64,000 bases of DNA. It comes from Minisyncoccota bacterium. Lineage in GTDB: Bacteria > Patescibacteriota > Minisyncoccia > Phycocordibacterales > BOKC01. The notes beneath the pieces are model-generated. The model ran no database searches. It saw only the letters and a program-made list of their open reading frames with translations, and was not told where the DNA came from. Shown one piece after another: positions 12,405-62,715 of this stretch (within the stretch, counting starts at the first letter, position 1; each line of letters opens with the position of its first letter). The DNA is taken from contig CP129473.1 in assembly GCA_030583745.1 (NCBI GenBank), forward strand, positions 76,551 to 140,550, given 5' to 3'. Made by a program: the position numbers and the translations under genes.

Positions 12405-12410
12405 AATCCC

Positions 12411-12445
12411 TCCCCGCGCCCACAAGGCGCGGGGATTTTGATTTT
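12411..12445 (+). terminator. intrinsic terminator after the FabZ-like gene
   Basis: The hairpin 'tccccgcgcc-cacaa-ggcgcgggga' is followed by 'ttttgatttt'. Confidence 0.7.
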
Positions 12446-12517
12446 ATATAGTCCCTCGGGGCAGAGCCACGAGGTAATGTCGGAATCCTCCGCCAGCTGG
12501 CGAACTACGTCACTTAT

Positions 12518-12760: not shown

Positions 12761-12828
12761 ATACATATCCTGTAAAAAAAGCAACTCCAGACTCTTTTTA
12801 AACCTCAATTAGTATCGATAGTAGGATT

Positions 12829-12936
12829 TCAGAAGAGCTGGAAAATCAACCATGCCAAGGAGTAAACAGTGGCACCTATGGCAAATCCGGTGATCTTCCG
12901 CCTGATGATTTCTGATGCACTGTGTGGGGCGTTCAT
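12829..12936 (-). CDS. small hydrophobic peptide (35 aa) with strong RBS
   Basis: 'AAGAGGAGAGAGAA-ATG' gives MNAPHSASEIIRRKITGFAIGATVYSLAWLIFQLF, which has one predicted TM segment. It is below the 60-aa ORF-track cutoff. Confidence 0.4.
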   Translation of the reverse strand: MNAPHSASEIIRRKITGFAIGATVYSLAWLIFQLF

Positions 12937-13010
12937 TTCTCTCTCCTCTTTTATTTAAGGATGTCTTTTGAAGAACACTTGCGATATTGTATTTGAAATA
13001 TTAAAAATTT

Positions 13011-13062
13011 CAAGAGAAAAACCCGCCATCGTGTGCGCCTACAAGTCGCGAGCGATGGCGGG
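13011..13062 (-). terminator. intrinsic terminator (minus strand)
   Basis: The stem 'cccgccatcg…cgatggcggg' is followed on the minus strand by 'tttttctcttg'. Confidence 0.55.
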
Positions 13063-13192
13063 TTAAAGGGACGGGCCGAAGAATTACACTGGCGGAAAGG
13101 GGGATAGACTGGGGTGTTTTTGTCTTCCCCCGCCGTATCGTAGTGGGGGTGGAACGATATTCCGCCAGATTCTTTCGGCCCCTGGTTCCTCT

Positions 13193-13531
13193 TTAGTCTT
13201 CGACGACCCTCCTGACGACTCCATCACAGACCAGCCACTGTTTCGGCAGGTTTCGGTCGTCGTATAGTTCATCAATCCGAACCACCAAGAGGCGGCTTTC
13301 ATCTGCTTTGAATTTGAAAACCGCTACACTGTTTGGTTCAGACGGGAAGTCTCGGCCGTGTTTTTTCTCGTATTCCGAGACGGCCGAAAATGCTGCAGTA
13401 GCACTGTTTTTGACTGTCGGACTCTTTTCGATGAGGTTGATACTTTGCCAGATGACGTGGCCCATTGCCAGTATCAAAATAACGACAATGACGATGTTTA
13501 TCACGATCGTCGGGTTAGATTTTCTTCGCAT
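13193..13531 (-). CDS. membrane-anchored hypothetical protein (112 aa)
   Basis: A strong RBS 'GGGAGGCAAAAATG' precedes the start. An N-terminal TM segment 'IVINIVIVVILILAMGHVIW' is followed by a soluble domain. Confidence 0.55.
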   Translation of the reverse strand: MRRKSNPTIVINIVIVVILILAMGHVIWQSINLIEKSPTVKNSATAAFSAVSEYEKKHGRDFPSEPNSVAVFKFKADESRLLVVRIDELYDDRNLPKQWLVCDGVVRRVVED

Positions 13532-13600
13532 TTTTGCCTCCCGTTCGTGTGTGTTTGTGTACAGAAATCTACACTCTTTATATCATTTTCTAGAAAAAAG

Positions 13601-13658
13601 AAAAACCCGTCCTGGCGGGTGGGCTGGGGGAGATGGGCAAGTGCCCGACCAGGACGGG
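13601..13658 (-). terminator. intrinsic terminator after the DUF167 gene
   Basis: A 10-bp stem 'cccgtcctgg/ccaggacggg' is followed on the minus strand by 'tttttcttttttc'. Confidence 0.55.
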
Positions 13659-51919: not shown

Positions 51920-53221
51920 ATGAAAGATTTTCTTAAAAAAACCATTGTTCATCTTATTACTTTTGAATCTAAGCTGATAATCAAAAAATATCAGCCGAAG
52001 ATTGTTGCTATCACCGGCAGTGTCGGCAAAACCGGCACCAAAGATGCAGTTCACGCTCTTTTTTCTAAATTGTTCTATGCCGAAAAAAGTCCAAAAAGTT
52101 TTAACAGCGAAGTTGGGATTCCACTTTCAATTATCGGTGGCCAAAAAAGTGGGTGGAGAAATCCGCTATCTTGGCTTAAGGTTGTTTTGGACGGCTTATT
52201 TTTAATTATTTTACCAAATCATTATCCGAGGTGGCTAATTCTCGAGGTTGGGGCTGACAGGCCGGGAGACATAGAGGAAATTTCAAATTGGCTGAAAACT
52301 GACGTTGCGATCTTCACCAGAATGAGCGAAGTGCCGGTTCACGTTGAGTTTTTTGATTCACCGCAATCAGTCTTAAAAGAAAAAATGTTTTTGTTAAAAT
52401 CTCTTAGGTCGGAGCAGGGCGTTGCAGTTTACAATTACGATGATGAAATTATAAGAAGGGAGATTGAGGACAGAAAAGAATTGACCAAGTTGTCTTATGG
52501 TTTTGACAAAAAAGCCAGAGTCTCTGCTTCAAACTATGCAATTATTTATGATAGAAAAACTGGTTTTCCTTCGGGTATAAATTTCAAAATTAATTTTGAT
52601 GGTTCAAGTGTACCAGCCACGATTTACGACACAGTTGGCCGTCAGCAAGTTTATGCTGTCTTGGCCGGGGTTACGGCCATTTTGTCTCAAGGTGGTAATC
52701 CAGTAAAAGCAATTGAAGGTCTTCTTGATTATAGAAGTCAGCCGGGCCGAATGAAGATTTTAGAAGGTGTAAAAAATTCTCTTATTATTGACGATAGCTA
52801 CAATTCTTCTCCGGTTGCCCTGTTTGAATCGCTTGATACTTTGAAATCTATCAAGTGCGCTGGAAGAAAAATTGTAATTTTGGGCGATATGATGGAGATA
52901 GGACGCTATTCAATTGACGAACATAAAAAAGCCGGAGCTTTAGTGGCCGAGTTTGCCGATTTTATTTTTACTGTTGGTGTTCGAGCAAAATGCATCAATG
53001 ATGGCGCTTTAGAAAGGGGGTTTTCGCCTGAAAAAATTTTTAATTTTGGCGATTCCAGAGAAGCCGGAAAACAAGTGGAAATTATGGTTCAGCCAGGCGA
53101 CATCGTCTTAGTAAAAGGTTCACAATCAGCTAGAATGGAGCGGGCAGTTGAAGAAATCATGAATGATCCGATGAAAAAAGAAGAACTTTTGGTAAGGCAA
53201 GAACAAAGCTGGCGTTTCTGA
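51920..53221 (+). CDS. murF: Mur ligase, probably UDP-MurNAc-pentapeptide synthetase MurF
   Basis: The P-loop 'ITGSVGKTGTKD' and Mur ligase middle and C-terminal domains are present. The 433-aa size and its position after ftsI also fit. Confidence 0.7.
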   Translation: MKDFLKKTIVHLITFESKLIIKKYQPKIVAITGSVGKTGTKDAVHALFSKLFYAEKSPKSFNSEVGIPLSIIGGQKSGWRNPLSWLKVVLDGLFLIILPNHYPRWLILEVGADRPGDIEEISNWLKTDVAIFTRMSEVPVHVEFFDSPQSVLKEKMFLLKSLRSEQGVAVYNYDDEIIRREIEDRKELTKLSYGFDKKARVSASNYAIIYDRKTGFPSGINFKINFDGSSVPATIYDTVGRQQVYAVLAGVTAILSQGGNPVKAIEGLLDYRSQPGRMKILEGVKNSLIIDDSYNSSPVALFESLDTLKSIKCAGRKIVILGDMMEIGRYSIDEHKKAGALVAEFADFIFTVGVRAKCINDGALERGFSPEKIFNFGDSREAGKQVEIMVQPGDIVLVKGSQSARMERAVEEIMNDPMKKEELLVRQEQSWRF

Positions 53222-53359
53222 TAAAAATTTTTGTTTAAGATGTGGTTTGCTAGTTGGCAAAGAGAGAAAAAGAGAAGGTTACTTTTTCATTCCCTCGCCA
53301 TACAGCGCGCCTTCGGCGCGCCCAGATTTTGCGCTTACTTCCGACCAAGTTTCTGAATG

Positions 53360-53603
53360 TGACGATATTATAGCCTTTGCTCGAACCTATTTCGAGTCAA
53401 AGACCGACTGACTTCGCACGCGCGGAGCGCGTGGTGGCTTGGAACTACATCGTACGCTCCGATCGCGTGGTGATGCCAACTCATGCTGCCAGCGCCTCGA
53501 CAAGCTCGGCGCTCCGCCCTCGCCCCGTTTCCGCTCTCCATGCTTTTTCTTTTTTCGCGGGGGGATTTTTTTAAAAATTGAATGGGCGGAAAACGGGGCT
53601 CGG
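53360..53603 (+). repeat. inverted repeat IR244 left copy
   Basis: It is 100% identical to the reverse complement of 59256-59498. The track ORFs 53377..53574 (+) and 59284..59481 (-) give identical 65-aa translations. Confidence 0.9.
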
Positions 53604-53604
53604 T

Positions 53605-54260
53605 CGGGCTTCACCTAAAAGGGTGAAGCGTGGCGTCATTCGTTCAGTGGTGCCTCGGATCTATTCTATCAATTTTGCGTTCATGGCTAAAGGGACGGCA
53701 CCCTCGGCATCCACCTCGGGCTATTTCCGCTAGGGCTACGAGCGCCTAGATGCCTAGGAGTGTCGCTTTTCCTCGCAAGTGCGCCTTGCTAGGCGCTTGC
53801 TCGGGCGACACGCAGTTTGGGGGAAGGAAGGAATCCTTCCCCCAGCTTCGGGCTCCTCCTCGCAGTGGTCGTTCGGAGTGTACGGTGCCGTACAGATAAC
53901 AAGGTACGTCGTGAGTTTCTCTCTCGCTTTGACGTGCCTTCGGAGTCCGCCTTCGCACAACCCCCATCCTCGTTTTCAATATTTCTTTCGTGGTGTCGCT
54001 TCCGCTACGATACTTTGTTTTGCAATATAACGTCGGCGCTCGTCCTTTAGCCCTGGACGCTCCTAGCGGAAATAGCCCGAGGGCTCTGCCTTATGTGCTT
54101 GCCCCAGGCCGTGTTAGTACACGGCTCCCACCCGTGCGCGCACAAACCCCGCCCGCAAGCGGGCGGGACTCCCTGCAAAATGCAAGTGCCCTCGGGAGGA
54201 TTCGAACCTCCAAGATCGGGGTAGAGGCCCGACAGTTTATCCATTAGCTTACGAGGGCAA
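53605..54260. ncRNA. candidate large structured RNA (GC-rich, ORF-free, extensive self-complementarity); identity unknown
   Basis: The region is ~58% GC. The long-range pair 'cctcgggctatttccgctagg' (53722-53742) faces its reverse complement at 54061-54081. Many local hairpins are present (gggggaagg…ccttccccc, gtacggtgccgtac, cccgcccgcaagcgggcggg). The strand of transcription is uncertain. Confidence 0.35.
54185..54256 (-). other. tRNA-like element (T-arm GGAGG-UUCGAAU-CCUCC and 7-bp acceptor GCCCUCG/CGAGGGC; irregular D/anticodon arms; no CCA)
   Basis: On the minus strand it reads 'gccctcgtaagctaatggataaactgtcgggcctctaccccgatcttggaggttcgaatcctcccgagggca'. The anticodon stem 'ucggg/cccga' has loop 'ccucuac' (C at position 33). 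The D-arm is poorly paired, so it is likely a pseudo-tRNA or a structural mimic. Confidence 0.4.
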
Positions 54261-54345
54261 AGAGAAAGAAGCGCATAAATGCGCTGGGGGAATTCTTTAT
54301 CTTCTGTGCCTCGTATTAAACATTACTGTTTACATTAACATTTTT

Positions 54346-54373
54346 TTGAAAAAATAAAAACAAGAGTTATAAT
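54346..54373 (+). promoter_or_regulatory. sigma-70 promoter (TTGAAA-16-TATAAT)
   Basis: It lies upstream of a ~170-nt GC-rich leader that precedes the YjzC-like ORF. Confidence 0.5.
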
Positions 54374-54544
54374 TCAACAATTGAAGTCCTTTGAAATGCT
54401 GGCGGGATAGTCGGAGCGCCCTTTTCTGCATCTTAGGGGATCATCTCACCTCCTCCCCCCTGGTCAGTGCTTTTTCGAGCATTGACTCGGGGGCGCGTAG
54501 CAGGTCGAGCCCCTGGATTACCAGAATTAAGCGAAACGATTGTT

Positions 54545-54706
54545 ATGACTAAAGTCAAAACAGGCGGTACTGCTAAAAAATCTGGACAGTATAGAGTCGA
54601 GGGTACAAAAACCCTCGAGATTACATTGTCTAGAGGCGATCGCGTTCCACCTCATGGAGGAAAGGCGAGAACCTTTGTGCTCGTTGATAAGACGAAACAC
54701 AAATAG
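54545..54706 (+). CDS. YjzC-like small protein (53 aa)
   Basis: 'VKTGGTAKKSGQYRVEGTKTLEITLSRGDRVPPHGGKARTFVLVDK' follows the YjzC pattern (K.G..AP..G.Y.e.G…i.L..GD.fP…..W). The start is at the internal ATG and the RBS is weak. Confidence 0.4.
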   Translation: MTKVKTGGTAKKSGQYRVEGTKTLEITLSRGDRVPPHGGKARTFVLVDKTKHK

Positions 54707-54750
54707 TAAGTAACCGCTAAACTTTTCCTGCCAGCATTTCAGAGGATTTT

Positions 54751-56238
54751 CTATTTTATTCTCAAAAATGGTTTGCTAAGGGTTAAGCGATAATCTCCAA
54801 AAAACTCTTTTATCGTCTTTCTGGTCCTGTGTTTTTCAATGTATTGATCTAAATAAGTGAGTAGTTCTTTTTCAACCTCGACGAAGCTGTCTGGGCAAAT
54901 AGATTTGTAATGATTGACCCAACCGCCAGCAAAAGATTTGTATGCCTTAATTACTTCTCCAAAATCAAATTTTTTGACGATACCAACATTTACAATTTCG
55001 CGCTCAAAAGTGTTTTTAAATTCCTGGATTGCCTCCTTGGGAATGAAAAGACTATTTTTCGAAATACCAACCCCAAGGAATTCGAAACTATTTCCATCAA
55101 TATTTAATAACTGTGTTTTACTACCAACCTCAAGTGGGTGTAATTTCAATTTAAGTTTCTCGCTTCCTGATTTAATTAACTCATATACATTATTTGCTTG
55201 ACCTTCACTTTTTGAAAGAACGATCATGTCATCAAGGTATCTGAAACCCTTGCACCCTTTTACTTTGTTAGGAATTTTATCAAGTGGTAAGGCGTAATAA
55301 CTTGAGAGAAATGGTGAGTATGAAAGACCCTGCGGAATGCCAGTGGTCTTTAGTTTAAGGTGTCCAAATGTTCCATGAAAATCTGAATCTGCCTCAATTT
55401 TATTTTCTATGGATACCTTTATTAATCGAAATAATCTGCGTTGATCTTTGCCTCTGAATTTTTTACTCAGTTGCTTTAATAAAATACTTCTATCAATGGA
55501 TGAGAAAAAATCTTTAAAATCTAATTTTAAAATATAGCGAGCCTCGCCATTTTTTAAAGCTCTCTGTATTTCATTGAGTATTCGCTTACATTCACTGGTG
55601 TCTTTTTCTTTCTTAATACCAAGTCCAAGTGCACCGTATTCCTCTAAGGCTGGTTTTAGAATATTACAAACTTTTGGAAATACGGCTGATAAAACGATCC
55701 GGTCTTTTGAAGAAGGGATAAGAAGGGGTCTATATTTTCCGTTAGATTTTCTTATTTTCAAACCAGAATATGGTAAGAAAGAAAATCGCCGTAATTCTTT
55801 CGAGTAGAATTCGGCTACACTTATCTTCTTTATGTATTTCCCTAGATCATTTAGCTCCCGCTCCTCTATTCCTGAAAATCTTTTTAAATCTGAAAAGTTT
55901 TTGCGAAATACTTTACGTCTCAAACTCTTAAATGCACTTGCGATTTGTTCTTGAGTTAAAAGCAGTTGCAGGTTCACATAATTTTCTATGATAGACGACC
56001 TCACTGGACTCGAACCAGTGCATGTTCCGAAAGATCGTGCTCCCTTAAGGGTAGAGGCTACTGCCGAAGCGATAGCCTCACCATTAAGGGTACTACTTTT
56101 CAGTCCGTTCGTCAACCGAAGTTGATAGACTTTCCTAATCGGTAGGTGGCGACCTGCAAGAGTAAAGTTTATGGCGTGCATAATTCTTTTCCCTCGCAGG
56201 AAGTCGTGAGCCGAAGCCCACTGTAAAATATTATACAT
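54751..56238 (-). CDS. group-II-intron-like reverse transcriptase with maturase/X (thumb) domain, not embedded in an intron ribozyme (G2L-type)
   Basis: RT motifs 1-7 are present: 'NGKYRPLLIPSSKDRIV', 'LKLDFKDFFSSI', 'GIPQGLSYSPFL', 'FRYLDDMIVL' and 'LHPLEV…'. The X-domain 'AGGWVNHYKS' is also present. No D1-D3 or D5/D6 intron RNA is found; flanks are occupied by other genes. The first ~85 codons of the track ORF overlap structured RNA (see findings). Confidence 0.8.
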   Translation of the reverse strand: MYNILQWASAHDFLRGKRIMHAINFTLAGRHLPIRKVYQLRLTNGLKSSTLNGEAIASAVASTLKGARSFGTCTGSSPVRSSIIENYVNLQLLLTQEQIASAFKSLRRKVFRKNFSDLKRFSGIEERELNDLGKYIKKISVAEFYSKELRRFSFLPYSGLKIRKSNGKYRPLLIPSSKDRIVLSAVFPKVCNILKPALEEYGALGLGIKKEKDTSECKRILNEIQRALKNGEARYILKLDFKDFFSSIDRSILLKQLSKKFRGKDQRRLFRLIKVSIENKIEADSDFHGTFGHLKLKTTGIPQGLSYSPFLSSYYALPLDKIPNKVKGCKGFRYLDDMIVLSKSEGQANNVYELIKSGSEKLKLKLHPLEVGSKTQLLNIDGNSFEFLGVGISKNSLFIPKEAIQEFKNTFEREIVNVGIVKKFDFGEVIKAYKSFAGGWVNHYKSICPDSFVEVEKELLTYLDQYIEKHRTRKTIKEFFGDYRLTLSKPFLRIK

Positions 56239-56303
56239 TAACCGGCTTATTCAGCAATAGAAAATCTGTGGATAACTCGCTGTAGTTTTCGGTATTCTTT
56301 CGG

Positions 56304-56325
56304 TTATAATATGCTTATATTATAA
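56304..56325. promoter_or_regulatory. palindrome TTATAATAT-gctt-ATATTATAA in the divergent RT / LexA-MTase promoter region
   Basis: It has 9-bp inverted arms and lies 20 bp upstream of the LexA-MTase ATG. It is a candidate operator. Confidence 0.4.
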
Positions 56326-56345
56326 CATATAACTTTTTATAAATT

Positions 56346-57914
56346 ATGAGATCTCTTACCATAAGACAAAAGCAAATATTCGATTTCATTGACTCCTATA
56401 TAGCGAAGAAAGGCATTTCTCCCACAATAGACGAGATAAGGAAAAAGTTTAAATTAAAATCAGTTTCTACTATTCATCAGCATATAAACGCTTTAGTTGA
56501 AAAAGGTTATTTAGAAAAAGATGAAAAATCCGTCCGAGGTCTTAAAATAAAAGGAGAAACTGACTCTATAAGAATTCCCGTTGTTGGAATGATTGCCGCC
56601 GGACAGCCGATTGAAGCAATAGAGAATATTGAGAGACATATCGGTGTAAGCCGAAGCGTAGTGAAAAATAGCGATGATCATTATGCCTTGCGAGTAACTG
56701 GAGAGAGTATGATTGATGAAGGTATTTTTGATGGAGATATTGTTATCATAAAAAAGCAGTCAGTGGCTGAAAACGGACAAACTGTAGTAGCAATAATCGA
56801 TGACAATGAGGCTACGTTGAAAAAAATATATAGGGAGAAAAACAGATTTAAACTTGAACCGGCAAATCAGAGCATGCTCCCTTTTTATCGCAAAGAGGTG
56901 GAAGTGCGAGGTGTCGTTGTGCAGGTTATCAGAAATATTGATAATCGTCCCGAGGATAAAAAAATTCAGAAAAATGGCTATAAGACCGTTGACTTGTTTG
57001 CTGGTGTAGGAGGAATACGTCTCGGATTTGAAAAAGTCGGTTTTGAAACTGTGTTTGCAAATGATTTTGAACCGCAATGCAAGGACACTTATGATCTTAA
57101 TTTTGACACCTCAAAGCTCGTCGTAGAAGACATAAGAAAAATTGGCATCGAAGATTTGCCTGAATTTGATTTTCTCCTCGGGGGTTTCCCGTGCCAGGCG
57201 TTCTCTATTGCCGGATATAGGCAGGGATTTGGAGATGAGAAAGGTCGCGGAAATTTATTTTTTGACATAGCAAGAATGTTAGAAGCAAGAAAGCCGACAG
57301 GATTTCTTTTAGAGAATGTAAAAAATCTAATGGGCCATGACAAAGGCAGGACTTTCAAAATTATTAAAGAAACTCTTGAGGGTCTAGGTTATCATGTCCA
57401 TGCAAAGGTTCTCAACACTATGGAGTACGGAAACATTCCGCAAAATCGCGAGAGAATTTATATTGTTGGATTTAGGGACAAAAAGCATTTTGAAAGGTTT
57501 GAATATCCTAAGCCCGTTAAACTAGCTGTAAGCGTTACCGACATGCTAGAGGACGAGGTGGATAAAAAATATTATTACAATGGAAAACCCCTATTCCCAA
57601 GGTTAAAAGACGATGTTAAAAAAGAAGGAACGGTTTATCAGTGGAGGAGGAAATATGTCCGGGAAAACAAAAGCGGAGTATGCCCAACGCTTACCGCAAA
57701 TATGGGAACCGGCGGGCATAATGTTCCGATTATCAAAGATAAAAAAGGAATAAGAAAACTAACCCCTTTAGAGTGTTTTAGAATTCAGGGATTTCCAAAA
57801 CACTACAAGCTTCCAGAATTGGCTGACTCTGCACTGTACAAGCAGGCAGGAAATTCGGTTTCTGTGCCAGTAATAGAAGCCGTGGCAAAAGAGATGCTGA
57901 ACGCCGTTAGTTAG
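56346..57914 (+). CDS. LexA repressor (HTH + S24 peptidase) fused in-frame to DNA (cytosine-5)-methyltransferase
   Basis: Residues 1-~200 align with E. coli LexA. This includes the cleavage-site 'IAAGQP', catalytic Ser 'TGESM' and Lys 'TLKKIY', and 'GVVVQVIRNI'. Residues ~205-522 carry C5-MTase motif I 'FAGVGGIRLGF', motif IV 'GGFPCQAFS' and motif VI 'LLENVKNL'. Confidence 0.85.
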   Translation: MRSLTIRQKQIFDFIDSYIAKKGISPTIDEIRKKFKLKSVSTIHQHINALVEKGYLEKDEKSVRGLKIKGETDSIRIPVVGMIAAGQPIEAIENIERHIGVSRSVVKNSDDHYALRVTGESMIDEGIFDGDIVIIKKQSVAENGQTVVAIIDDNEATLKKIYREKNRFKLEPANQSMLPFYRKEVEVRGVVVQVIRNIDNRPEDKKIQKNGYKTVDLFAGVGGIRLGFEKVGFETVFANDFEPQCKDTYDLNFDTSKLVVEDIRKIGIEDLPEFDFLLGGFPCQAFSIAGYRQGFGDEKGRGNLFFDIARMLEARKPTGFLLENVKNLMGHDKGRTFKIIKETLEGLGYHVHAKVLNTMEYGNIPQNRERIYIVGFRDKKHFERFEYPKPVKLAVSVTDMLEDEVDKKYYYNGKPLFPRLKDDVKKEGTVYQWRRKYVRENKSGVCPTLTANMGTGGHNVPIIKDKKGIRKLTPLECFRIQGFPKHYKLPELADSALYKQAGNSVSVPVIEAVAKEMLNAVS

Positions 57915-58956
57915 TTGATATCTTATCAAACAGATCCACAAGATCTTGCGTGGAGTCATTGCCAAATTTCTCAAGCGTGTATTTTAGCGCAATGTTCTCA
58001 TTCCATTTAGAGCTCCGGTCAAATTTATTGAGGTTGATGACAATGTTACCTTTTTGAACAGGAATTCCACTAATTCTAATATCATCTGTAGAATGTATAT
58101 ACAAAGAGCCTTTGTTTTTCTTTAGAATTGTTATCTCTGTTTTGTTTTCACTTTCAATAGCGAACGGAAGACAAACATATCCTTTATCGTATGTATAGGT
58201 AAACCTATTGTTTCCGTCCAAAACCATTTTCTCTTTAAGATTTGCCCCGCGAGGATCTTTATTTTCAGCGCCGGCAAAATAGTACGGGCTCACATCCTTT
58301 TTGCAAAGCGTGAAATTATTTTGAACCTCGCCTTTTGTGTAAATGCCAATTAAGCGCATTGTGCCAACTTTTGCGGTTTTAGAAACAGTAGAATGAGGAA
58401 TAATTTGTTTGTCTTTGTCGCTTTCAATAAATTCGTCGCTCATTTTAAGCTCCTCAAAATATTTGTCAGCAAATGTTTCTTCTTCAAACAGCGATGTCAA
58501 ATAATCTCCCTCCAGATCGGACTCAATAAATGCATAATAATCATCAATCATTTGCGGTTCCCGTACCCCAAGTAACGCCTGATCTTTCCGCACAACTTTA
58601 ACCTCGATCCTCGGCATGCCATCAATATTTGTCCAGGTTCCGTTATTGTATTTTACAAAAGGAATAGTCTTTCCGTCGGAAGTTTGAAGTCCGAGAATAT
58701 CAGGCGCGTTCTTATCAGAGTCGTTAGCATATATAAAATAATCTGAAATAACTTTATATTTGTTATCCTCCAGCAATTTTTCAAAGATAACTGTTTCTGC
58801 GATTTTATTGAACCACCTTTCAATATAACCGCCGATTAAATCTCTTTTAGCAGAAGTGCCCTGGCGATGAAGCGGGTCGCCTTTAAACTTCATTAGAATG
58901 AAGTAAACAATTTTTCTAAGATCATCTTTTGTTATTTCTATTTCCGGGTATTTCAT
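57907..58956 (-). CDS. putative type II restriction endonuclease (PD-(D/E)xK)
   Basis: It converges on and overlaps the MTase by 8 bp. It lies directly downstream of a C-protein gene. A candidate 'PD…(E)VK' motif is 'APDILGL…RIEVKVV'. Confidence 0.55.
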   Translation of the reverse strand: MKYPEIEITKDDLRKIVYFILMKFKGDPLHRQGTSAKRDLIGGYIERWFNKIAETVIFEKLLEDNKYKVISDYFIYANDSDKNAPDILGLQTSDGKTIPFVKYNNGTWTNIDGMPRIEVKVVRKDQALLGVREPQMIDDYYAFIESDLEGDYLTSLFEEETFADKYFEELKMSDEFIESDKDKQIIPHSTVSKTAKVGTMRLIGIYTKGEVQNNFTLCKKDVSPYYFAGAENKDPRGANLKEKMVLDGNNRFTYTYDKGYVCLPFAIESENKTEITILKKNKGSLYIHSTDDIRISGIPVQKGNIVINLNKFDRSSKWNENIALKYTLEKFGNDSTQDLVDLFDKISTN

Positions 58957-58958
58957 AA

Positions 58959-59171
58959 TTATTTGAATCGCAAAAGCTCATCAGGATCCACATCCAGAGC
59001 GTCTGATATCTTTTTTATATTCTCAACAGAAACATTGCGCTCGCCTCGTTCAATATCGCTCATGTATGTTCTGTGCAGTTTCGCTTTTGTAGCGAGTTTT
59101 TCCTGCGAAATACCCGCCTCCAAGCGAAGTTCTTTAATTTTCTGTCCTAATTGTTTCTTAATATTTGACAT
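58959..59171 (-). CDS. controller (C) protein, XRE-family HTH
   Basis: The 70-aa product contains 'LGQKIKELRLEAGISQEKLATKAKLHRTYMSDIERGERNVS'. The stop abuts the downstream REase start. A C-box lies upstream. Confidence 0.75.
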   Translation of the reverse strand: MSNIKKQLGQKIKELRLEAGISQEKLATKAKLHRTYMSDIERGERNVSVENIKKISDALDVDPDELLRFK

Positions 59172-59228
59172 GCAAAGTCTGGTAACTTATTGACTACATC
59201 ATATCTTTTTGAGTAAAATAGGGCTACA

Positions 59229-59249
59229 GACTATAAGTGACGTATAGTC
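59229..59249. promoter_or_regulatory. C-box-like palindrome GACTATA-N7-TATAGTC
   Basis: It lies ~58 bp upstream of the C-protein start and matches the GACT…AGTC C-box consensus. Confidence 0.55.
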
Positions 59250-59255
59250 TAAGCC

Positions 59256-59498
59256 CGAGCCCCGTTTTCCGCCCATTCAATTTTTAAAAAAATCCCCCCG
59301 CGAAAAAAGAAAAAGCATGGAGAGCGGAAACGGGGCGAGGGCGGAGCGCCGAGCTTGTCGAGGCGCTGGCAGCATGAGTTGGCATCACCACGCGATCGGA
59401 GCGTACGATGTAGTTCCAAGCCACCACGCGCTCCGCGCGTGCGAAGTCAGTCGGTCTTTGACTCGAAATAGGTTCGAGCAAAGGCTATAATATCGTCA
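59256..59498 (-). repeat. inverted repeat IR244 right copy
   Basis: It is the perfect reverse complement of 53360-53603. Confidence 0.9.
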
Positions 59499-59578
59499 CA
59501 ATTTAGAACTTTTCCCAATGCGCGTCGCTCCGCGACGAATTCGGACGGAACTGGCGCGCCGAAGCGCGCGGATTTGTC
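59496..59578 (+). repeat. inverted repeat IR83 left copy
   Basis: It is the perfect reverse complement of 60994-61076. It contains the GCGCGC-UUCG-GCGCGC hairpin and lies in the recombinase promoter region. Confidence 0.9.
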
Positions 59579-59604
59579 TCTTGTTTCGTATCTAAAAAAA
59601 ATCT

Positions 59605-61092
59605 ATGTCCAAACCAAAATATTTTCTTTACGCTCGCAAATCGACGGAAGATGATGACAAGCAGGTCATGTCTATCGAGGCTCAACTTTTTGAATTGCGA
59701 GAGTTTGCACGTAAAGAAAATCTTGAAATTGTTGAGACATTTCAAGAGTCGAAAAGCGCAAAGACTCCGGGCAGGCCTCTGTTCAACAAGATGATGGCGA
59801 AGATAGAGGAAATGGAGAATGTCGGCATTCTTGCGTGGCATCCGGATCGTCTCGCGAGAAATAGCGTGGACGGCGGTCGCATCATCTATCTTGTTGACCA
59901 GAAGAAAATCACGTCTTTGCGCTTTCCGACATTTTGGTTTGAACCCACCCCGCAGGGGCTCTTTATGTTGCAAGTGGCGTTCGGTCAATCGAAGTATTAC
60001 TCCGACAACTTGGTGGAGAACACCAAGCGCGGGATGCGCCAAAAAGTGCGGCGAGGCGAGTGGCTCACAAAAGCGCCGTTCGGGTACGTGAACAATCCGA
60101 AGACGAGGAATATCGAACCGCACCCGACTCATTCCAAAATCATCGTCCGCGCTTTTGAGGAGTATGCGAAAAAATCGCACACGCTGAAATCACTCGCCGA
60201 TTTTTTGGCGCTTCACGGAGTAAGTACTTCCAAAGGTACGCCACTTGGCAAAGCTTCCATCAAACGAATGCTGACCAACAGGGCATATTTGGGATTTGTG
60301 AAGCATAAGGAGGAATGGTTTGACGGAAGCTTTGCGCCAATTCTTTCCCCGAAATTGTTTGAAGCCGTGCAAAAGGTATTAGCGACAAGAGAACGCCCGC
60401 GCAAAACAAAGACCGGCCACAATTTTCCTTTCGTTGGACTTTTTCGTTGCGGAGAGTGCGGGAGCATGATCACTGCGCAGTGGGCGACGGGGAAATCAGG
60501 AGGACGGTATCGGTACTATCGGTGCACGAAAAAGAAAGGAAATTGTGACCAAGGGTATATGCGCGAGGAATCTCTTGTCGCAGACGTAAAGGAACGGCTC
60601 CAAACAATTTCGCTTTGCGATGAGGATACTGATTATATGCTCAAGTGCGTTCTGCAATTCGAGCAAGAGGAAAACCGCTCATCGCAAAGCCGCGTTCAAA
60701 ATCTTTCTTTCAAACTCAAAGCAAGCGAGGAGAAGCTTGACCGTCTTGTCTCGGCCTTTATTGATGGTGACATTCCAAAGGAAATTTATCTCGCCAAGAA
60801 GGACAAGCTGATGCGGGAATCACTTGCTTTGCGGGAACAGCGGAAAGATTTTGAACGCGAGGGAAAGAATTGGGTCGAACCCCTACGGGAGTGGATTTTA
60901 GATACGAAACAAGCCAATTTTTTGAGCTCATCCGCTGATTTTCACAAAATCAGCTCCTTCGTCAAAAAAGTTGGAACGAACCCTACGGTTCGTGACAAAT
61001 CCGCGCGCTTCGGCGCGCCAGTTCCGTCCGAATTCGTCGCGGAGCGACGCGCATTGGGAAAAGTTCTAAATTGTGACCCTATCGGGATTTGA
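59605..61092 (+). CDS. large serine recombinase (resolvase/integrase)
   Basis: The N-terminal resolvase domain 'YARKSTEDDDKQVMSIEAQ' carries the catalytic Ser. A recombinase domain and zinc ribbon 'CGECGSM…YYRCTKKKGNC' follow, with a C-terminal coiled coil. Confidence 0.9.
   Translation: MSKPKYFLYARKSTEDDDKQVMSIEAQLFELREFARKENLEIVETFQESKSAKTPGRPLFNKMMAKIEEMENVGILAWHPDRLARNSVDGGRIIYLVDQKKITSLRFPTFWFEPTPQGLFMLQVAFGQSKYYSDNLVENTKRGMRQKVRRGEWLTKAPFGYVNNPKTRNIEPHPTHSKIIVRAFEEYAKKSHTLKSLADFLALHGVSTSKGTPLGKASIKRMLTNRAYLGFVKHKEEWFDGSFAPILSPKLFEAVQKVLATRERPRKTKTGHNFPFVGLFRCGECGSMITAQWATGKSGGRYRYYRCTKKKGNCDQGYMREESLVADVKERLQTISLCDEDTDYMLKCVLQFEQEENRSSQSRVQNLSFKLKASEEKLDRLVSAFIDGDIPKEIYLAKKDKLMRESLALREQRKDFEREGKNWVEPLREWILDTKQANFLSSSADFHKISSFVKKVGTNPTVRDKSARFGAPVPSEFVAERRALGKVLNCDPIGI
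60994..61076 (-). repeat. inverted repeat IR83 right copy
   Basis: It overlaps the last ~30 codons of the recombinase and ends 3 nt inside the tRNA-Glu 3' end. Confidence 0.9.
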
Positions 61093-61148
61093 ACCCGAGT
61101 TTTCGCCTTGAGAAGGCGACGTCCTAGACCAGACTAGACGATAGGGCC
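61074..61148 (-). tRNA. tRNA-Glu (CUC)
   Basis: On the minus strand it reads GGCCCUA-UC-GUC…GAC-G-UCGCC-UUCUCAA-GGCGA-AAAC-UCGGG-UUCAAAU-CCCGA-UAGGGUC-A. Acceptor stem is 7 bp (one G·U), D-stem 3 bp. Anticodon loop is UUCUCAA, giving anticodon CUC. No CCA is encoded. Confidence 0.75.
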
Positions 61149-61189
61149 GCGCCTATAATTTTCCACAAAAATCAGGTTGTCGCAAGATT

Positions 61190-61645
61190 TTAAGAAAAAT
61201 ATCCTTCAACAATTTTTTTAACCTCTCCACCGTCGGCTTGACCTTTCAATTCTTTCATCACCACGCCGATCAGGATTCCAATTTTGCTTTTGTCAGTGAT
61301 TCCTAACTCTTCTTTTTTAGCTAGAGCAACTTTTCTTATTTCATCCAAACCAATTTCTGCCGGCAAGTATTGCTTCAAAATTTCCAATTCTTTTTCTTCC
61401 TGCAGAGCCAAATCAGCACGCCCACCTTTTTGGAATTGTTCTATGGAATCTTTTCTTTGCTTAACAGCCCTTTTAATGACTGCGAAACAATCATTTTCGT
61501 CCAATACTTCCTGTGGTTTACGTCCTTTGGCAACAAGCTCGTTGGTAAAAGCGGCGAGCAACCCCTTCAGAGTATCGGATTTAAGCTGATCTCTTTCTAT
61601 CATAGACTTTTTTAAATCCCCCCTTATTTTGTCGTTTATCTTCAT
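61190..61645 (-). CDS. GatB/YqeY-domain protein
   Basis: 'KDSIEQFQKGGRADLALQEEKELEILKQYLP' matches the YqeY family pattern. Confidence 0.8.
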   Translation of the reverse strand: MKINDKIRGDLKKSMIERDQLKSDTLKGLLAAFTNELVAKGRKPQEVLDENDCFAVIKRAVKQRKDSIEQFQKGGRADLALQEEKELEILKQYLPAEIGLDEIRKVALAKKEELGITDKSKIGILIGVVMKELKGQADGGEVKKIVEGYFS

Positions 61646-61665
61646 TTGTTTGTTATAATTAAATT

Positions 61666-62715
61666 ATGGAAACTTTTCTTATAATTTTGACGATAGTTTT
61701 GGTTTTATCAAATGGTTTTTTGGTTTGGTTTTTTTTGAAATCAAAAAATAGCTCAAAAGCAGGCGATTCCGGACTTAATCTGATTTTACAGCAAATGAAT
61801 GAGCTTGCCAAAGTGGTAGACTCAAAAATGGGCGAGACTTCGCGTCAAGTCAATGAAGCTATCCGCTTTCATTATGGTGATTCGCAAAAGCTTATAAAGG
61901 AAATTACCAGAGAATTGACCGAAGTCAAAGAGACCGGAAAACAAGTAATTTTTTTTGCCGACCAGCTTCAAAGCTTGCAGGATATTTTAAAAAATCCAAA
62001 ACAGAGAGGAGTTCTTGGCGAATATTATCTGGAAACGCTTTTAAAAAATGTTTTACCTCCGGGATCTTTTCAAATGCAATATTCTTTTCCCGATGGAACA
62101 ATTGTTGATGCCGTGGTTTTTGTCAAAGACAGGATAATTCCGATTGACTCTAAATTCTCCTTGGAAAATTACAATAGATTGGCCGAAGAAAGAGACCAGC
62201 CGGAGCGCAAAAGATTGGAAAAGGTTTTTGAAAACGATTTGAAAAACCGTATTGTTGAAACCTCAAAATATATTCAGCCGGATAAGGGGACCATGGAATT
62301 TGCGTTTATGTTCATTCCTCATGAAGCTATTTATTACGATCTGCTTATTGGGAAGGTCGGTTTGATTTCAGAAGAAAATCTTATTCAACGAGCGGCTTCT
62401 AAATATAAAGTCATTATTGTTTCCCCGACCTCGTTTTTAGCTTACCTTCAGACAGTCTTGCAAGGTTTAAATGCTCTCCAAATTGAGGAAAAAGCCCAAG
62501 ATATTGTTAAAAGAGTTGGAGAACTAGGGAAGCATATAAAGGCCTTTGAAGACTACAATTTAAAGCTTGGAAATTCTCTAAAAACCACGGTTAATCAATA
62601 TAATTTGGGCTCAAAAGAGCTTAATAAAATTGACAAAGACGTTCTGCGAATTACTGGTTCAGCCCCGGGAATTGTGACTGAATTTATAGATAAGCCGGCT
62701 GACGAAGATAGCTAA
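61666..62715 (+). CDS. rmuC: DNA recombination protein RmuC
   Basis: An N-terminal TM segment and coiled coils are present, with 'YKVIIVSPTSFLAYLQTVLQGL' in the C-terminal RmuC domain. Confidence 0.85.
   Translation: METFLIILTIVLVLSNGFLVWFFLKSKNSSKAGDSGLNLILQQMNELAKVVDSKMGETSRQVNEAIRFHYGDSQKLIKEITRELTEVKETGKQVIFFADQLQSLQDILKNPKQRGVLGEYYLETLLKNVLPPGSFQMQYSFPDGTIVDAVVFVKDRIIPIDSKFSLENYNRLAEERDQPERKRLEKVFENDLKNRIVETSKYIQPDKGTMEFAFMFIPHEAIYYDLLIGKVGLISEENLIQRAASKYKVIIVSPTSFLAYLQTVLQGLNALQIEEKAQDIVKRVGELGKHIKAFEDYNLKLGNSLKTTVNQYNLGSKELNKIDKDVLRITGSAPGIVTEFIDKPADEDS

What the first reader, a model, noticed from the sequence alone, without database searches (positions are those of the whole stretch)
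53222..61148. Composite tRNA-Glu island carrying RT + structured RNA + SOS-coupled R-M cassette, with nested perfect inverted repeats
An ~8-kb insert sits between murF and tRNA-Glu. Its parts are:
- a perfect 244-bp IR pair (53360-53603 / 59256-59498) enclosing a 5.65-kb cargo: a GC-rich structured RNA, a YjzC-like gene, a G2L-type RT, a LexA-C5-MTase fusion, a PD-(D/E)xK REase and a C protein with C-box;
- a large serine recombinase flanked by a perfect 83-bp IR pair (59496-59578 / 60994-61076). The distal copy ends at the tRNA-Glu discriminator.
The IR83 terminal motif 'ttcta(a)attgtga' also occurs, degenerate, at the left island boundary (53348-53362). A GCGCGCC-UUCG-GGCGCGC hairpin recurs at 53303, 59548 and 61003. 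This architecture predicts a recombinase-driven invertible or excisable defence cassette. I do not recognise a described defence system with this RT / RNA / LexA-MTase / REase / C-protein composition.
Basis: partly seen in the sequence, partly recalled or inferred. Interest (0 to 1): 0.9.

Follow-up and report, generated by a model that had tools for sequence, protein, structure and literature searches.

The report
Twin-inverted-repeat recombinase island at tRNA-Glu
This 7.7-kb stretch is one mobile island that a large serine recombinase inserted at the 3' end of a tRNA gene, and it belongs to a large, apparently undescribed family of such islands in Patescibacteria (CPR bacteria) that all share two abutting inverted-repeat pairs and an intact internal attachment site; this copy carries a restriction system and a reverse transcriptase with its own RNA.

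Summary
The repeats, genes and coordinates are real. Near-identical strains (99.5% identical flanks) carry an empty site, which defines one 7,714-bp insertion (53364-61077) at the tRNA-Glu 3' end.

The junctions read as serine-integrase sites:
- attL = X|P'
- attR = P|tRNA
- the point where the two repeat pairs meet is an intact, inverted attP (P|P')

This layout, [a-cargo-a'][b'-recombinase-b]-tRNA, is not an assembly artefact and not a chance composite. It recurs in 66 of 70 (recombinase repeat) and 26 of 39 (cargo repeat) related Patescibacteria loci, including two records titled chromosome. Cargo there is 1-9 kb and unrelated. Targets are many tRNAs and two tmRNA-like 3' ends.

I found no evidence of inversion: the recombinase faces the tRNA in all 68 loci that have one adjacent.

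The cargo is separate modules, not one defence system:
- a C-R-M restriction cassette whose methylase has gained a complete LexA
- a rare orphan reverse transcriptase with a conserved 5' tRNA-like RNA
- a widespread GC-rich structured element
- a tRNA-Arg gene

What the long, near-perfect repeats do is unresolved. I found no description of this family.

The parts
53280..53357 (+). Left flank X. It is a degenerate P-arm remnant of an older element, including the GCGCGCC-TTCG-GGCGCGC hairpin at about 53303. It is also present in the empty-site alleles.
   Evidence: The empty alleles L007, L008 and L011 contain it. It is nearly identical to the P arm of element L078.
53358..53363 (+). attL core TGTGAC, the crossover region shared with attB and attP
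   Evidence: Alignment of the empty site, left junction, middle junction and right junction.
53364..53603 (+). Arm a (left copy of IR1). It holds the P' half-site with the conserved CCTTTGC(G/T)CGAACC motif, an outward promoter-like site (53395-53367, minus strand) and two 26-nt hairpin + GTGGTG repeats.
53604..54176 (.). GC-rich structured element just inside arm a. An inner domain is closed by a perfect 21-bp stem (53714-53734 / 54062-54082). The strand is not resolved.
   Evidence: 69-78% identical at the same position in L078, L093 and L056, with partial copies in L050 and L068. Found in 55 of 120 metagenome loci retrieved with a 15-mer. 21-24 covarying pairs in 20 sequences. No Rfam match.
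54186..54258 (-). tRNA-Arg(TCT) gene carried in the cargo
   Evidence: ARAGORN. Rfam tRNA model, 55.3 bits.
54545..54706 (+). 53-aa ORF with no family assignment. It is bracketed by a 24-nt inverted repeat (54384-54407 / 54726-54749) and preceded by a promoter-like site (54346-54373).
   Evidence: A weak homologue sits in the cargo of L056.
54751..55977 (-). Reverse transcriptase, probably starting at GTG 55977. The mechanical ORF extends to 56238.
   Evidence: RVT_1, 8e-22. Best PADLOC model RT_UG17, 3.9e-39. Group II RT model at 123.6 bits, below its cut-off of 300. Homologues are 405-419 aa and start at (M/V)NLQ.
55984..56141 (-). Conserved structured RNA in the RT 5' leader: a long hairpin followed by a tRNA-like acceptor + T-arm minihelix that ends about 16 nt before the RT start.
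   Evidence: Conserved upstream of RT homologues with 36-66% protein identity. 33 pairs, 91% paired, 14 pairs with changes on both sides, 0 of 500 shuffles as high, slid controls far lower.
56346..57914 (+). LexA (HTH + S24 peptidase) fused to a C5 cytosine methyltransferase
   Evidence: Pfam LexA_DNA_bind, Peptidase_S24 and DNA_methylase. TIGR00498 lexA, 5.7e-59. The methylase part is 68% identical to unfused methylases of homologous cassettes. The full-length fusion is rare.
57907..58956 (-). PD-(D/E)xK nuclease, the putative restriction endonuclease
58959..59171 (-). 70-aa Xre-type HTH. It is the C (controller) protein of the R-M cassette and sits where related elements carry a small HTH gene.
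   Evidence: PADLOC Control_protein, 2e-27. 46% identical to the HTH that precedes the REase homologue in L105-L107. HTH homologues lie next to a' in at least 8 related elements.
59255..59494 (+). Arm a' (right copy of IR1, inverted). It has a promoter-like site (59463-59491, TCGAAA-17-TATAAT) that reads across the core towards the recombinase gene.
59495..59500 (-). Core of the internal, intact attP (P|P' when read on the minus strand)
59501..59597 (+). Arm b' (left copy of IR2, inverted). It is the reverse complement of the recombinase 3' coding end, contains a terminator-like hairpin (59554-59569) and ends 8 nt before the ATG.
59605..61092 (+). Large serine recombinase (495 aa). Its last codons cross the core into tRNA-Glu.
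   Evidence: Pfam Resolvase, Recombinase and Zn_ribbon_recom. 6,773 homologues at E<=1e-20, and the named ones among the 120 listed are all Patescibacteria-type or unclassified.
60994..61071 (+). Arm b (right copy of IR2): the P half-site and hairpins inside the recombinase 3' end
61072..61077 (+). attR core TGTGAC, overlapping the last bases of tRNA-Glu
61073..61148 (-). tRNA-Glu(CTC), the target (B' half-site). It is left intact by the insertion.

Best explanation
**What it is.** Window 53364-61077 is one integrative mobile element. Its own large serine recombinase (LSR) inserted it at the extreme 3' end of tRNA-Glu by attP x attB recombination.

**Family.** It belongs to a very large Patescibacteria family. 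The conserved body plan is X | a-cargo-a' | b'-LSR-b | tRNA.
- Arms a carry the P' half-site.
- Arms b carry the P half-site and the LSR C-terminal codons.
- All four arms begin at a copy of the 3-6-nt crossover core.
- The a'|b' joint is therefore a complete attP in inverted orientation.

**Steps shown.**
- Presence/absence polymorphism at an exact site.
- Hybrid attL and attR junctions.
- Conservation of the layout and of the half-site motifs.
- Reuse of an old element's end as the left half of the target.

**Steps inferred.**
- The recombinase recognises mainly the tRNA T-arm/acceptor half-site (GAAC at +14). It reads the same motif 6 nt further out in P' (+20). From my own knowledge, this fits what is described for zinc-ribbon-domain positioning in attP versus attB half-sites of serine integrases.
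- The internal attP puts a promoter embedded in P' in front of the LSR gene, with the b' hairpins acting as an attenuator. LSR bound at that attP could then repress its own gene.
- The same b hairpins give the tRNA a new terminator.
- The arms are probably kept identical by gene conversion.

**Cargo.** It consists of independent modules:
- a C-R-M type II restriction system whose C5 methylase has acquired a full, apparently cleavable LexA at its N-terminus
- an orphan group-II-like RT with a cis-encoded 5' RNA that ends in a tRNA-like minihelix
- a backbone-associated GC-rich structured element
- a tRNA-Arg gene
For: **Empty site and junctions.**
- Empty-site alleles L007, L008 and L011 have 99.5% identical flanks that join at AATGTGAC|CCTATC.
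- Contigs L003 and L009 (same sample as each other) are 100% identical to the window. They stop about 30 nt into the perfect part of each repeat, as k=31 graphs do.
- L001, from another sample, covers the cargo and its a' junction.
- The middle junction equals P from attR plus P' from attL.

**Family conservation.**
- 80 related loci: IR2 in 66 of 70, median 133 nt and 99.2% identity. IR1 in 26 of 39, most at least 99% identical. The arms overlap by 3-11 nt.
- The layout is present in CP060229.1 and OY970382.1, both titled chromosome.
- It is also present around LSRs only 44-46% identical to this one (L138, L155).
- A minus-strand tRNA abuts the LSR 3' end in 68 of 80 loci, covering 17 anticodons. 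L050 and L056 end at tmRNA-like 3' ends.

**Half-sites and regulation.**
- Half-site consensus sequences and the 6-nt GAAC offset.
- Tandem array with a direct b|a joint in L063.
- The window's X arm matches the L078 P arm.
- Promoter-like and terminator-like sites. A similar -35/-10 arrangement occurs in about 10-14 of 24 P' arms.

**Cargo independence.**
- Cargo in related elements is diverse.
- Cargo modules occur separately elsewhere.
Against: - No excised circle or attP-only junction was observed. Excision is inferred only from the empty alleles, which could be ancestral.
- The left (B) half of the target is not conserved. This is unusual for serine integrases.
- A free circle would hold two equivalent attP sites and should give two integration isomers, yet only one is seen.
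- Promoter, terminator and autoregulation roles rest on consensus scans only, and are absent from about 40% of P' arms.
- A regulatory role does not explain why the arms are 90-330 nt long and nearly perfect. Decayed elements (L044, L088, L054) show no homogenisation.
- Some metagenome contigs show other arrangements (L112, L116, L218, L227, L196, L149).
- Most related loci are short-read MAG contigs.
Confidence: 0.8

Rival explanations
1. The repeats bound two invertible segments, like a Hin/Gin switch or a shufflon. The recombinase would flip the cargo and/or its own gene to switch expression, for example by placing the recombinase behind the tRNA promoter.
For: Each unit is flanked by identical half-sites in inverted orientation that meet at crossover cores, so inversion would regenerate every junction. 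In L112, L116 and L218 the GC-rich module lies next to the recombinase instead of far from it. L227 shows both arrangements. Flipping the recombinase segment would put it downstream of tRNA-Glu in the same direction (inference).
Against: The recombinase faces the tRNA in 68 of 68 loci. The HTH gene and the GC-rich module keep their ends in all close relatives. The 'flipped' cases have LSRs only 38-46% identical, and no near-identical pair with opposite orientation was found. From my own knowledge, serine integrases without a directionality factor recombine attP with attB, not attL or attR with attP. The cores are not palindromic in most elements.
Confidence: 0.1
2. Two separate mobile cassettes sit side by side: a cargo cassette bounded by inverted P' arms and an IS-like recombinase cassette bounded by inverted P arms. 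Each would move as a circle with a palindromic joint, so cassettes could be mixed and chained at the tRNA end.
For: Cargo units occur next to a tRNA without a recombinase unit (L196, possibly L149), and one cargo unit is flanked by two recombinase units (L227). Arrays of alternating units exist (L066, L063, L051). The same arms enclose unrelated cargo.
Against: No recombinase unit without an adjoining a' arm was found among 18 loci that lacked a detected cargo repeat or had too little upstream sequence; only L076 and L060 lack a recognisable a' there. In this window the empty and full alleles differ by the whole 7.7 kb, and no intermediate allele was recovered. Excising a unit bounded by inverted cores needs a palindromic central dinucleotide, which GTGA and GTGG cores cannot supply. 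The odd contigs end in the repeats and may be mis-joined.
Confidence: 0.12
3. Assembly fold-back artefact: the perfect inverted repeats are single-copy sequences duplicated by the assembler.
For: The arms are perfect. Many related contigs break at the arms. Some contigs have hairpin-like ends (L227, L149).
Against: In the assembly graph both ends of the cargo and both ends of the recombinase segment attach to the inner side of their arm, so any path must cross each arm twice. Independent samples reproduce the junctions. The same layout with different sequences occurs in dozens of genomes from different projects, including two records titled chromosome. Old copies have diverged arms (73-91% identity), which an artefact cannot produce.
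Confidence: 0.02
4. RT, RNAs, LexA-methylase, nuclease and HTH form one integrated, SOS-triggered defence system.
For: The genes are tightly packed, and the RT and methylase genes share a divergent 107-nt control region. The LexA part keeps its cleavage-site and catalytic motifs (my own reading). L022 carries a LexA gene next to a related methylase gene in another element of the family. RT homologues lie beside nucleases or R-M genes elsewhere.
Against: None of the RT homologue loci examined carries this R-M. The C-R-M cassette homologues have unfused methylases and no RT. The GC-rich element occurs with unrelated cargo. No PADLOC system model covers the set.
Confidence: 0.06

Closest known systems
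Large serine integrases of phages and islands (phiC31, Bxb1, A118/LI, SPbeta SprA, SCCmec Ccr, Tn4451 TnpX)
   Same: Same three-domain enzyme. A short crossover core. Hybrid attL and attR after insertion. A quasi-palindromic attP, with the outer motif placed further from the centre in attP than in attB.
   Different: - It targets the very 3' end of many different tRNAs, with no conserved left half-site.
- The integrase gene's own 3' end is the P arm.
- The integrated element keeps a complete inverted attP flanked by arms of 90-330 nt.
- No directionality factor was identified.
- I know of no serine-integrase element described with this layout. Four literature searches found none.
Yeast 2-micron plasmid (FLP) and chloroplast genomes: circles split by a large inverted repeat
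   Same: If excised, the element would be a circle divided into two unique segments by two inverted copies of a roughly 350-bp region that holds the recombination site.
   Different: Those molecules flip freely between isomers, whereas only one isomer is seen here. The enzyme is a serine recombinase, not a tyrosine recombinase. The integrated state is the one observed.
Hin/Gin/Cin invertible segments and shufflons
   Same: Segments are bounded by inverted recombination sites, with the recombinase gene adjacent or inside.
   Different: Those sites are 26-bp hix/gix or 19-bp sfx sites, not arms hundreds of bases long. Both orientations coexist in those systems, which is not seen here. The enzymes are small serine or tyrosine invertases.
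Tycheposons and other tRNA-targeting cargo islands
   Same: Small islands with variable 'flexible gene' cargo insert at tRNA genes and stack in arrays.
   Different: As far as I know, those use mainly tyrosine recombinases with a duplicated tRNA 3' segment as direct repeats, and no twin inverted repeats.
DRT10 / UG17 defence reverse transcriptases (PMC12632851; bioRxiv 10.64898/2026.04.29.721553)
   Same: The best PADLOC model for the RT is RT_UG17. A structured RNA is encoded next to the RT.
   Different: DRT10 is ncRNA + SLATT protein + RT, and all three are required. There is no SLATT gene here or beside the homologues. The RNA sits directly 5' of the RT and ends in a tRNA-like minihelix. 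The RT also scores on the group II intron RT model, and some homologues carry the maturase domain PF08388.
C-protein-controlled type II restriction-modification systems (PvuII, AhdI type)
   Same: A C gene immediately upstream of and abutting the R gene, a convergent C5 methylase, and a palindrome (ACTATA-N7-TATAGT, 59229-59247) upstream of C.
   Different: The methylase carries a complete N-terminal LexA. Only a handful of the 1.84 billion representative proteins share that full architecture.
Mauriceville/Varkud mitochondrial retroplasmid RT with a 3' tRNA-like template end (from memory)
   Same: A group-II-related RT is associated with an RNA that carries a tRNA-like acceptor/T-arm structure.
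   Different: Here the tRNA-like element is in the 5' leader of the RT mRNA in a bacterial island, and no CCA is encoded. No link to priming has been shown.

Membership tests
Large serine recombinase (integrase) element | N-terminal resolvase catalytic domain + recombinase domain + zinc ribbon domain | tested here: met
   Pfam PF00239 (3e-24), PF07508 (5e-13) and PF13408 (6e-12). CcrB and XisF models hit well below their cut-offs.
Large serine recombinase (integrase) element | Insertion at a specific site that gives hybrid attL and attR around a short common core, with an empty attB in relatives | tested here: met
   Empty alleles L007, L008 and L011. The junctions are X|P' and P|tRNA, sharing TGTGAC.
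Large serine recombinase (integrase) element | Both attB half-sites recognisable and conserved | tested here: not met
   The B' half-site (tRNA T-arm) is conserved. The left arm X shows no conservation beyond about 7 nt at the core.
Large serine recombinase (integrase) element | Excision as a circle, controlled by a directionality factor | not testable with these tools
   No circle junction or directionality factor could be identified. Reads or experiments are needed.
Invertible DNA switch / shufflon | Both orientations of the segment occur in populations or close relatives | tested here: not met
   The recombinase segment has one orientation in 68 of 68 loci. No near-identical pair with opposite cargo orientation was found.
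Classical insertion sequence / composite transposon | Terminal inverted repeats at the outer ends of the element, plus a target-site duplication | tested here: not met
   The outer ends (arm a at the left, arm b at the right) are not inverted copies of each other. The only flanking repeat is the 6-nt crossover core.
DRT10 (UG17) defence system | RT of the UG17 clade | tested here: inconclusive
   RT_UG17 is the best PADLOC hit (3.9e-39, 132.7 bits, profile positions 56-294 of 429). The group II RT model scores similarly (123.6 bits), and no phylogeny was made.
DRT10 (UG17) defence system | Adjacent SLATT effector gene with the ncRNA upstream of it | tested here: not met
   No SLATT hit in the island. 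None appears among the Pfam labels of genes beside the RT homologues in the loci examined.
Group II intron | RT ORF embedded in a ribozyme (domains I-VI) | tested here: not met
   No group II intron RNA family within 52500-62000 at E<=1. The RT scores 123.6 bits against a cut-off of 300 on TIGR04416.
Retron | msr/msd RNA with flanking a1/a2 repeats next to a retron-clade RT | tested here: not met
   The retron RT models are weak (56 bits against a cut-off of 235). The upstream RNA folds as a hairpin plus a tRNA-like minihelix. No Rfam retron family matched.
Type II restriction-modification system with controller protein | Methyltransferase + PD-(D/E)xK endonuclease + small HTH upstream of R | tested here: met
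Type II restriction-modification system with controller protein | Sequence-specific cleavage blocked by the cognate methylation | not testable with these tools
   Needs biochemistry.
LexA repressor | N-terminal winged HTH, Ala-Gly cleavage site and Ser/Lys dyad in the S24 domain | tested here: met
   TIGR00498, 199 bits against a cut-off of 111. The motifs IAAGQP, GESM and LKK are visible in the translation. Assigning them to E. coli A84-G85, S119 and K156 is from my own knowledge.

The most novel reading that the evidence does not exclude
The twin inverted repeats may be part of how this family moves, not just regulatory baggage. Every cassette is bounded by two inverted copies of one attP half-site, and an intact attP always survives integration. 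A serine integrase could then re-use, chain or exchange cassettes without a directionality factor. Alternatively, single-stranded DNA taken up by these naturally competent bacteria could fold a:a' and b':b to rebuild a duplex attP. Either would be a mobility mode not described for serine recombinases. It would also account for the co-evolving perfect arms, the arrays, the units without a recombinase, and the lack of a conserved left target half-site.
Probability: 0.25. Interest if true: 0.9.

Novelty: new variant of a known kind. Interest (0 to 1): 0.78.

Why it matters
**A major route of gene flux in Patescibacteria.** These bacteria have tiny genomes, and little is known about how they gain genes. 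This recombinase family has thousands of members at 65-89% identity (6,773 hits at E<=1e-20). It sits at the ends of many tRNA genes and carries 1-9 kb of highly varied cargo, including surface proteins, enzymes and defence genes. The family therefore looks like an important route of gene gain and loss in this radiation.

**An unusual site architecture.** An intact attP retained inside the integrated element, long co-evolving arms, and a target defined by one tRNA-derived half-site all depart from the textbook serine-integrase scheme. This could reveal a new way of controlling or re-using these enzymes, which are widely used genome-engineering tools. The ready-made attB/attP pairs at tRNA ends make this directly testable.

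**Three smaller leads.**
- A rare RT family with a conserved 5' tRNA-like RNA.
- A widespread, unclassified GC-rich structured element of about 400-570 nt.
- A restriction methylase fused to a complete LexA, which suggests that DNA damage can uncouple or retune an R-M system.

Tried and rejected
- **Assembly artefact.** Rejected on independent contigs, graph logic and family conservation.
- **Group II intron or retron.** No ribozyme or msr/msd families, and the RT falls below the family cut-offs.
- **DRT10 membership.** No SLATT gene.
- **Prophage origin.** The recombinase patterns found no relative in IMG/VR, and the island has no phage genes.
- **HTH as only an R-M controller, or only a backbone gene.** Both views have support, so I kept both.
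- **Strand of the GC-rich element.** Both strands fold with covariation, and the G-U versus A-C counts disagree between the two folds. Left unresolved.
- **Covariance model of the full GC-rich element.** Not attempted, because 395 columns would exceed the calibration limit. I used nhmmer instead.
- **Palindromic central dinucleotide**, which would allow single units to be excised. Possible for GCGG and GTGC cores, impossible for GTGA and GTGG.
- **Ideas I could not make fit the contiguous X|a C a'|b' S b|tRNA strand:** hairpin-telomere intermediates, fold-back replication, and replicative-transposition origins of the arms.
- **The 429-aa ORF in alleles L004-L006.** It has no Pfam family, so I did not treat it as a decayed recombinase; I did not compare it with the recombinase directly.

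Full report
**1. Observation**

- The repeat finder reports inverted repeat I1 at 53347-53603 / 59255-59511 (257 nt, 98%).
- It reports I2 at 59490-59578 / 60994-61082 (89 nt, 98%).
- A further perfect 18-nt piece of I2 lies at 59580-59597 / 60896-60913.
- tRNA-Glu(CTC) is at 61073-61148 on the minus strand.
- The island backbone is 49-58% G+C, against 35-40% in the flanks.

Domain searches confirm most gene calls:
- an RVT_1 reverse transcriptase;
- one ORF with LexA HTH + S24 peptidase + C5 methylase;
- a 70-aa HTH that matches R-M controller proteins;
- a large serine recombinase (LSR).

**2. One insertion with serine-integrase junctions**

Looking up the flanking genes in public assemblies returned contigs from other samples with 99.5% identical flanks.
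- In L007, L008 and L011, murF and tRNA-Glu are adjacent.
- The empty site reads ...CCAAGTTTCTGAATGTGAC|CCTATCGGGATTTGAACCC.
- The window therefore carries a 7,714-bp insertion, 53364-61077.

Aligning the empty site with the three junctions of the window gives:
- left junction = X|P';
- right junction = P|tRNA;
- the joint between the two repeat pairs, read on the minus strand, = P|P'.

That middle joint is exactly the attP that excision would regenerate. All junctions share the core TGTGAC.

The left flank X, including the third GCGCGCC-TTCG-GGCGCGC hairpin, is already present in the empty alleles. It is nearly identical to the P arm of a related element, L078. It is therefore the scar of an earlier element, and the present element inserted into an old attR-like site.

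Contigs L003 and L009 come from one sample and are 100% identical to the window. Each stops about 30 nt into the perfect part of a repeat, as expected for k=31 graphs. L001, from another sample, covers the cargo and its junction with a'.

**3. The twin repeats are a family trait**

The LSR has 6,773 homologues at E<=1e-20. The best 120 are 68-89% identical, and the organism names that sources give are Patescibacteria-type (Paceibacterota, Pacebacteria, Lloydbacteria, Yonathbacteria, Patescibacteria group) or plain 'bacterium'.

Eighty related genomic loci were fetched and compared with themselves.
- **Recombinase repeat.** 66 of 70 loci with enough upstream DNA have an inverted repeat around the recombinase gene. 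Its median length is 133 nt and its median identity 99.2%. The upstream copy ends 14-101 nt (median 29) before the ATG, and the downstream copy is the 3' end of the ORF.
- **Cargo repeat.** 26 of 39 loci with at least 2.5 kb upstream have a second pair (61-327 nt, 21 of 26 at least 99% identical). It encloses 1.1-9.1 kb and overlaps the first pair by 3-11 nt.
- **Closed records.** The layout occurs in CP060229.1 and OY970382.1, both titled chromosome.
- **Distant relatives.** It also occurs around LSRs only 44-46% identical to this one (L138 and L155).
- **Assembly breaks.** Many contigs end 100-300 nt upstream of the recombinase gene, as expected from a repeat that assemblers cannot cross.
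- **Old copies.** These have diverged arms (L044 79% / 74%, L088 76%).

An assembly artefact cannot produce this pattern.

**4. Target and sites**

A minus-strand tRNA abuts the recombinase 3' end in 68 of 80 loci. The targets are Glu, Ser, Arg, Ala, Leu, Lys, Gly, Pro and Val, covering 17 anticodons. L050 and L056 end at what look like tmRNA 3' ends.

For 24 elements the three junctions could be extracted. In every case attL, the internal attP and attR are related as in the window. The shared core is only 3-6 nt (GCGG, GTGA, GTGC or GTGG).

Consensus half-sites:
- P: ...GAAGTTTC.aTtTGtGg|
- P': |TgA.aT..TaaCCTTTGCgCGAACc.tTTTcgag
- B': |ag..gg.GgGA.TcGAACcC (the tRNA T-arm)
- X: no conservation beyond the core.

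GAAC lies at +20 in P' (18 of 24) and at +14 in B' (19 of 23). From my own knowledge, this matches the outward shift of the zinc-ribbon-domain motif in attP relative to attB half-sites of serine integrases.

The internal attP with its a' arm is present in nearly all of the 18 loci where a cargo repeat was not detected or could not be assessed; only L076 and L060 lack a recognisable a' there. L063 is a tandem array with a direct b|a joint, as expected if a newcomer inserts at the tRNA end of a resident element.

**5. What the arms might do**

I found no sign of inversion.
- The recombinase faces the tRNA in all 68 loci that have an adjacent tRNA.
- A small HTH gene lies next to a' on the minus strand in at least 8 elements.
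- The GC-rich module lies just inside the distal arm in ten elements.

Three metagenome contigs with distant LSRs (L112, L116, L218) have the module on the recombinase side. No near-identical pair with opposite orientation was found.

A consensus scan finds a promoter-like site inside P' (TCGAAA-17-TATAAT, 59463-59491). It reads across the core into b' and the recombinase gene, and its mirror image sits in the left arm. The scan also finds a terminator-like hairpin in b' at 59554-59569. About 10-14 of 24 P' arms keep a comparable -35/-10 arrangement.

My inferences from this:
- The internal attP serves as promoter and operator for the recombinase.
- The b hairpins terminate tRNA read-through on one side and attenuate recombinase transcription on the other.

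This does not explain three things:
- why the arms are so long and nearly perfect;
- why the two copies co-evolve;
- why only one of the two integration isomers expected from a circle with two attP sites is seen (note 4).

Gene conversion is the simplest account of the identity. A role of the arms in the mobility mechanism itself remains open. Contigs with recombinase-less units next to a tRNA (L196, L149), or with a recombinase unit at both ends (L227), keep that possibility alive.

**6. Cargo**

Cargo in related elements is unrelated to that of the window. It includes peptidoglycan-binding and beta-helix surface proteins, an aromatic amino-acid lyase, a GTP cyclohydrolase II-methyltransferase, and proteins of unknown function. 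The window carries four modules.

*(i) GC-rich element, 53604-54176.*
- It is 69-78% identical at the same position in L078, L093 and L056, and partly in L050 and L068.
- A 15-mer from it retrieved 120 metagenome loci, of which 55 carry the element. Typically it lies about 100 nt inside an arm-like terminal repeat.
- Twenty full-length copies give 21-24 covarying pairs.
- Rfam has no match.
- The strand is unresolved. The minus strand would place it directly 3' of tRNA-Arg.

*(ii) A 53-aa ORF.* It has no family assignment.

*(iii) The RT.*
- Only 17 protein clusters match at E<=1e-10. They are 405-419 aa long and start at (M/V)NLQ, so the window's RT most likely starts at GTG 55977.
- Upstream is an RNA conserved across homologues with 36-66% protein identity: a long hairpin followed by a 7-bp acceptor-like stem and a 6-bp T-arm with a UUCGAnU loop.
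- Its structure has 33 pairs, 91% paired. Fourteen pairs have changes on both sides. None of 500 shuffles scores as high, and slid controls score far lower.
- The homologues lie in islands with integrases, MmeI-type, SduA_C or Mrr-like genes. None carries this R-M or a SLATT gene.
- The best PADLOC model is RT_UG17. DRT10/UG17 is defined as ncRNA + SLATT + RT, so membership is not met.

*(iv) The R-M cassette.*
- Homologues of the nuclease always sit beside a convergent C5 methylase, and in L105-L107 behind a 70-aa HTH.
- Those methylases are 68% identical to the window's but lack LexA.
- Among 1.84 billion representative proteins, only a handful of the 150 listed hits match across both the LexA and methylase parts.
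- The LexA part scores above the equivalog cut-off. It shows the IAAGQP, GESM and LKK motifs, which I read as the cleavage site and the catalytic Ser and Lys.
- Coupling to the SOS response is therefore plausible but untested.

**7. Comparison and novelty**

The enzyme and the insertion chemistry are those of large serine integrases. The following depart from described serine-integrase elements:
- tRNA-end targeting through one conserved half-site;
- an integrase gene whose 3' end is the P arm;
- an intact inverted attP kept inside the integrated element;
- long co-evolving arms.

Four full-text searches found no description of such elements in Patescibacteria or elsewhere. The library is incomplete, so this is absence of evidence only.

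I rate it a new variant of a known kind and a widespread one. It comes with two unclassified structured RNAs and a rare LexA-methylase fusion as by-products.

Noticed in passing
window 55984-56141 (minus strand); L094 106-263, L095 5995-6152, L099 3061-3218, L102 4733-4890, L103 2485-2642: A conserved structured RNA lies directly 5' of a rare orphan RT family. It is a long hairpin followed by a tRNA-like acceptor + T-arm minihelix that ends about 16 nt before the RT start. It has no Rfam match. The mechanical ORF call wrongly extends the RT by 87 codons across it.
   Followed up: yes
It has conserved 5' and 3' domains and a variable or deleted middle. It usually lies just inside an arm of these recombinase elements. 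Its function and strand are unknown.
   Followed up: partly
L004 3521-4870 (also L005, L006), corresponding to window 53237-53305: A third allele of this locus has an empty tRNA-Glu site. A 1,350-bp segment encoding a 429-aa protein with no Pfam family replaces 69 nt between murF and the old hairpin.
   Followed up: partly
L010, L012, L013 (contig ends at window 61071-61073): Contigs from three further samples end exactly at the crossover core at the tRNA-Glu 3' end. This suggests that empty and occupied (or differently occupied) alleles coexist in those communities.
   Followed up: no
L066 4697-4884 and 8276-8463: In a three-element array at tRNA-Ser, the units are separated by identical spacers of about 188 nt. 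Each spacer starts with a degenerate tRNA-Ser 3' end and finishes with TTTTGCGG. Simple serial insertion at the tRNA end does not explain this.
   Followed up: partly
L227 1-2131 / 11494-13624; L149 1-364 / 5617-5976; L196 8945-9243: Three unusual arrangements were seen. In L227 a cargo unit is flanked by two inverted recombinase units (a 2.1-kb terminal repeat). In L149 the cargo unit has tRNA-Glu inside both terminal repeat copies. In L196 a cargo unit lies 48 nt from tRNA-Arg with no recombinase. These may be real variants or repeat-induced mis-joins.
   Followed up: no
window 54120-54127 (ends of L001 and L002): Two independent Logan contigs that carry the cargo both stop within 7 nt of each other, about 50 nt before the right end of the GC-rich element. 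This is as expected if that element is shared by several different islands in those samples.
   Followed up: partly
P0377 (478 aa), P0379 (512 aa), P0300 (777 aa): Other proteins match the LexA part over its full length and then continue into 270-370 further residues. LexA fused to other enzymes may therefore be a recurring theme. The C-terminal domains were not examined.
   Followed up: no
L022 61-1658: Another element of the same family carries a LexA-like gene immediately followed, in a different reading frame, by a related C5 methylase gene. This may be the unfused precursor of the window's fusion.
   Followed up: partly
window 56305-56326: An 8-bp inverted repeat, TTATAATA-N6-TATTATAA, lies about 20 nt upstream of the LexA-methylase start, in the control region shared with the RT. 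It is a candidate operator for the fused LexA.
   Followed up: no
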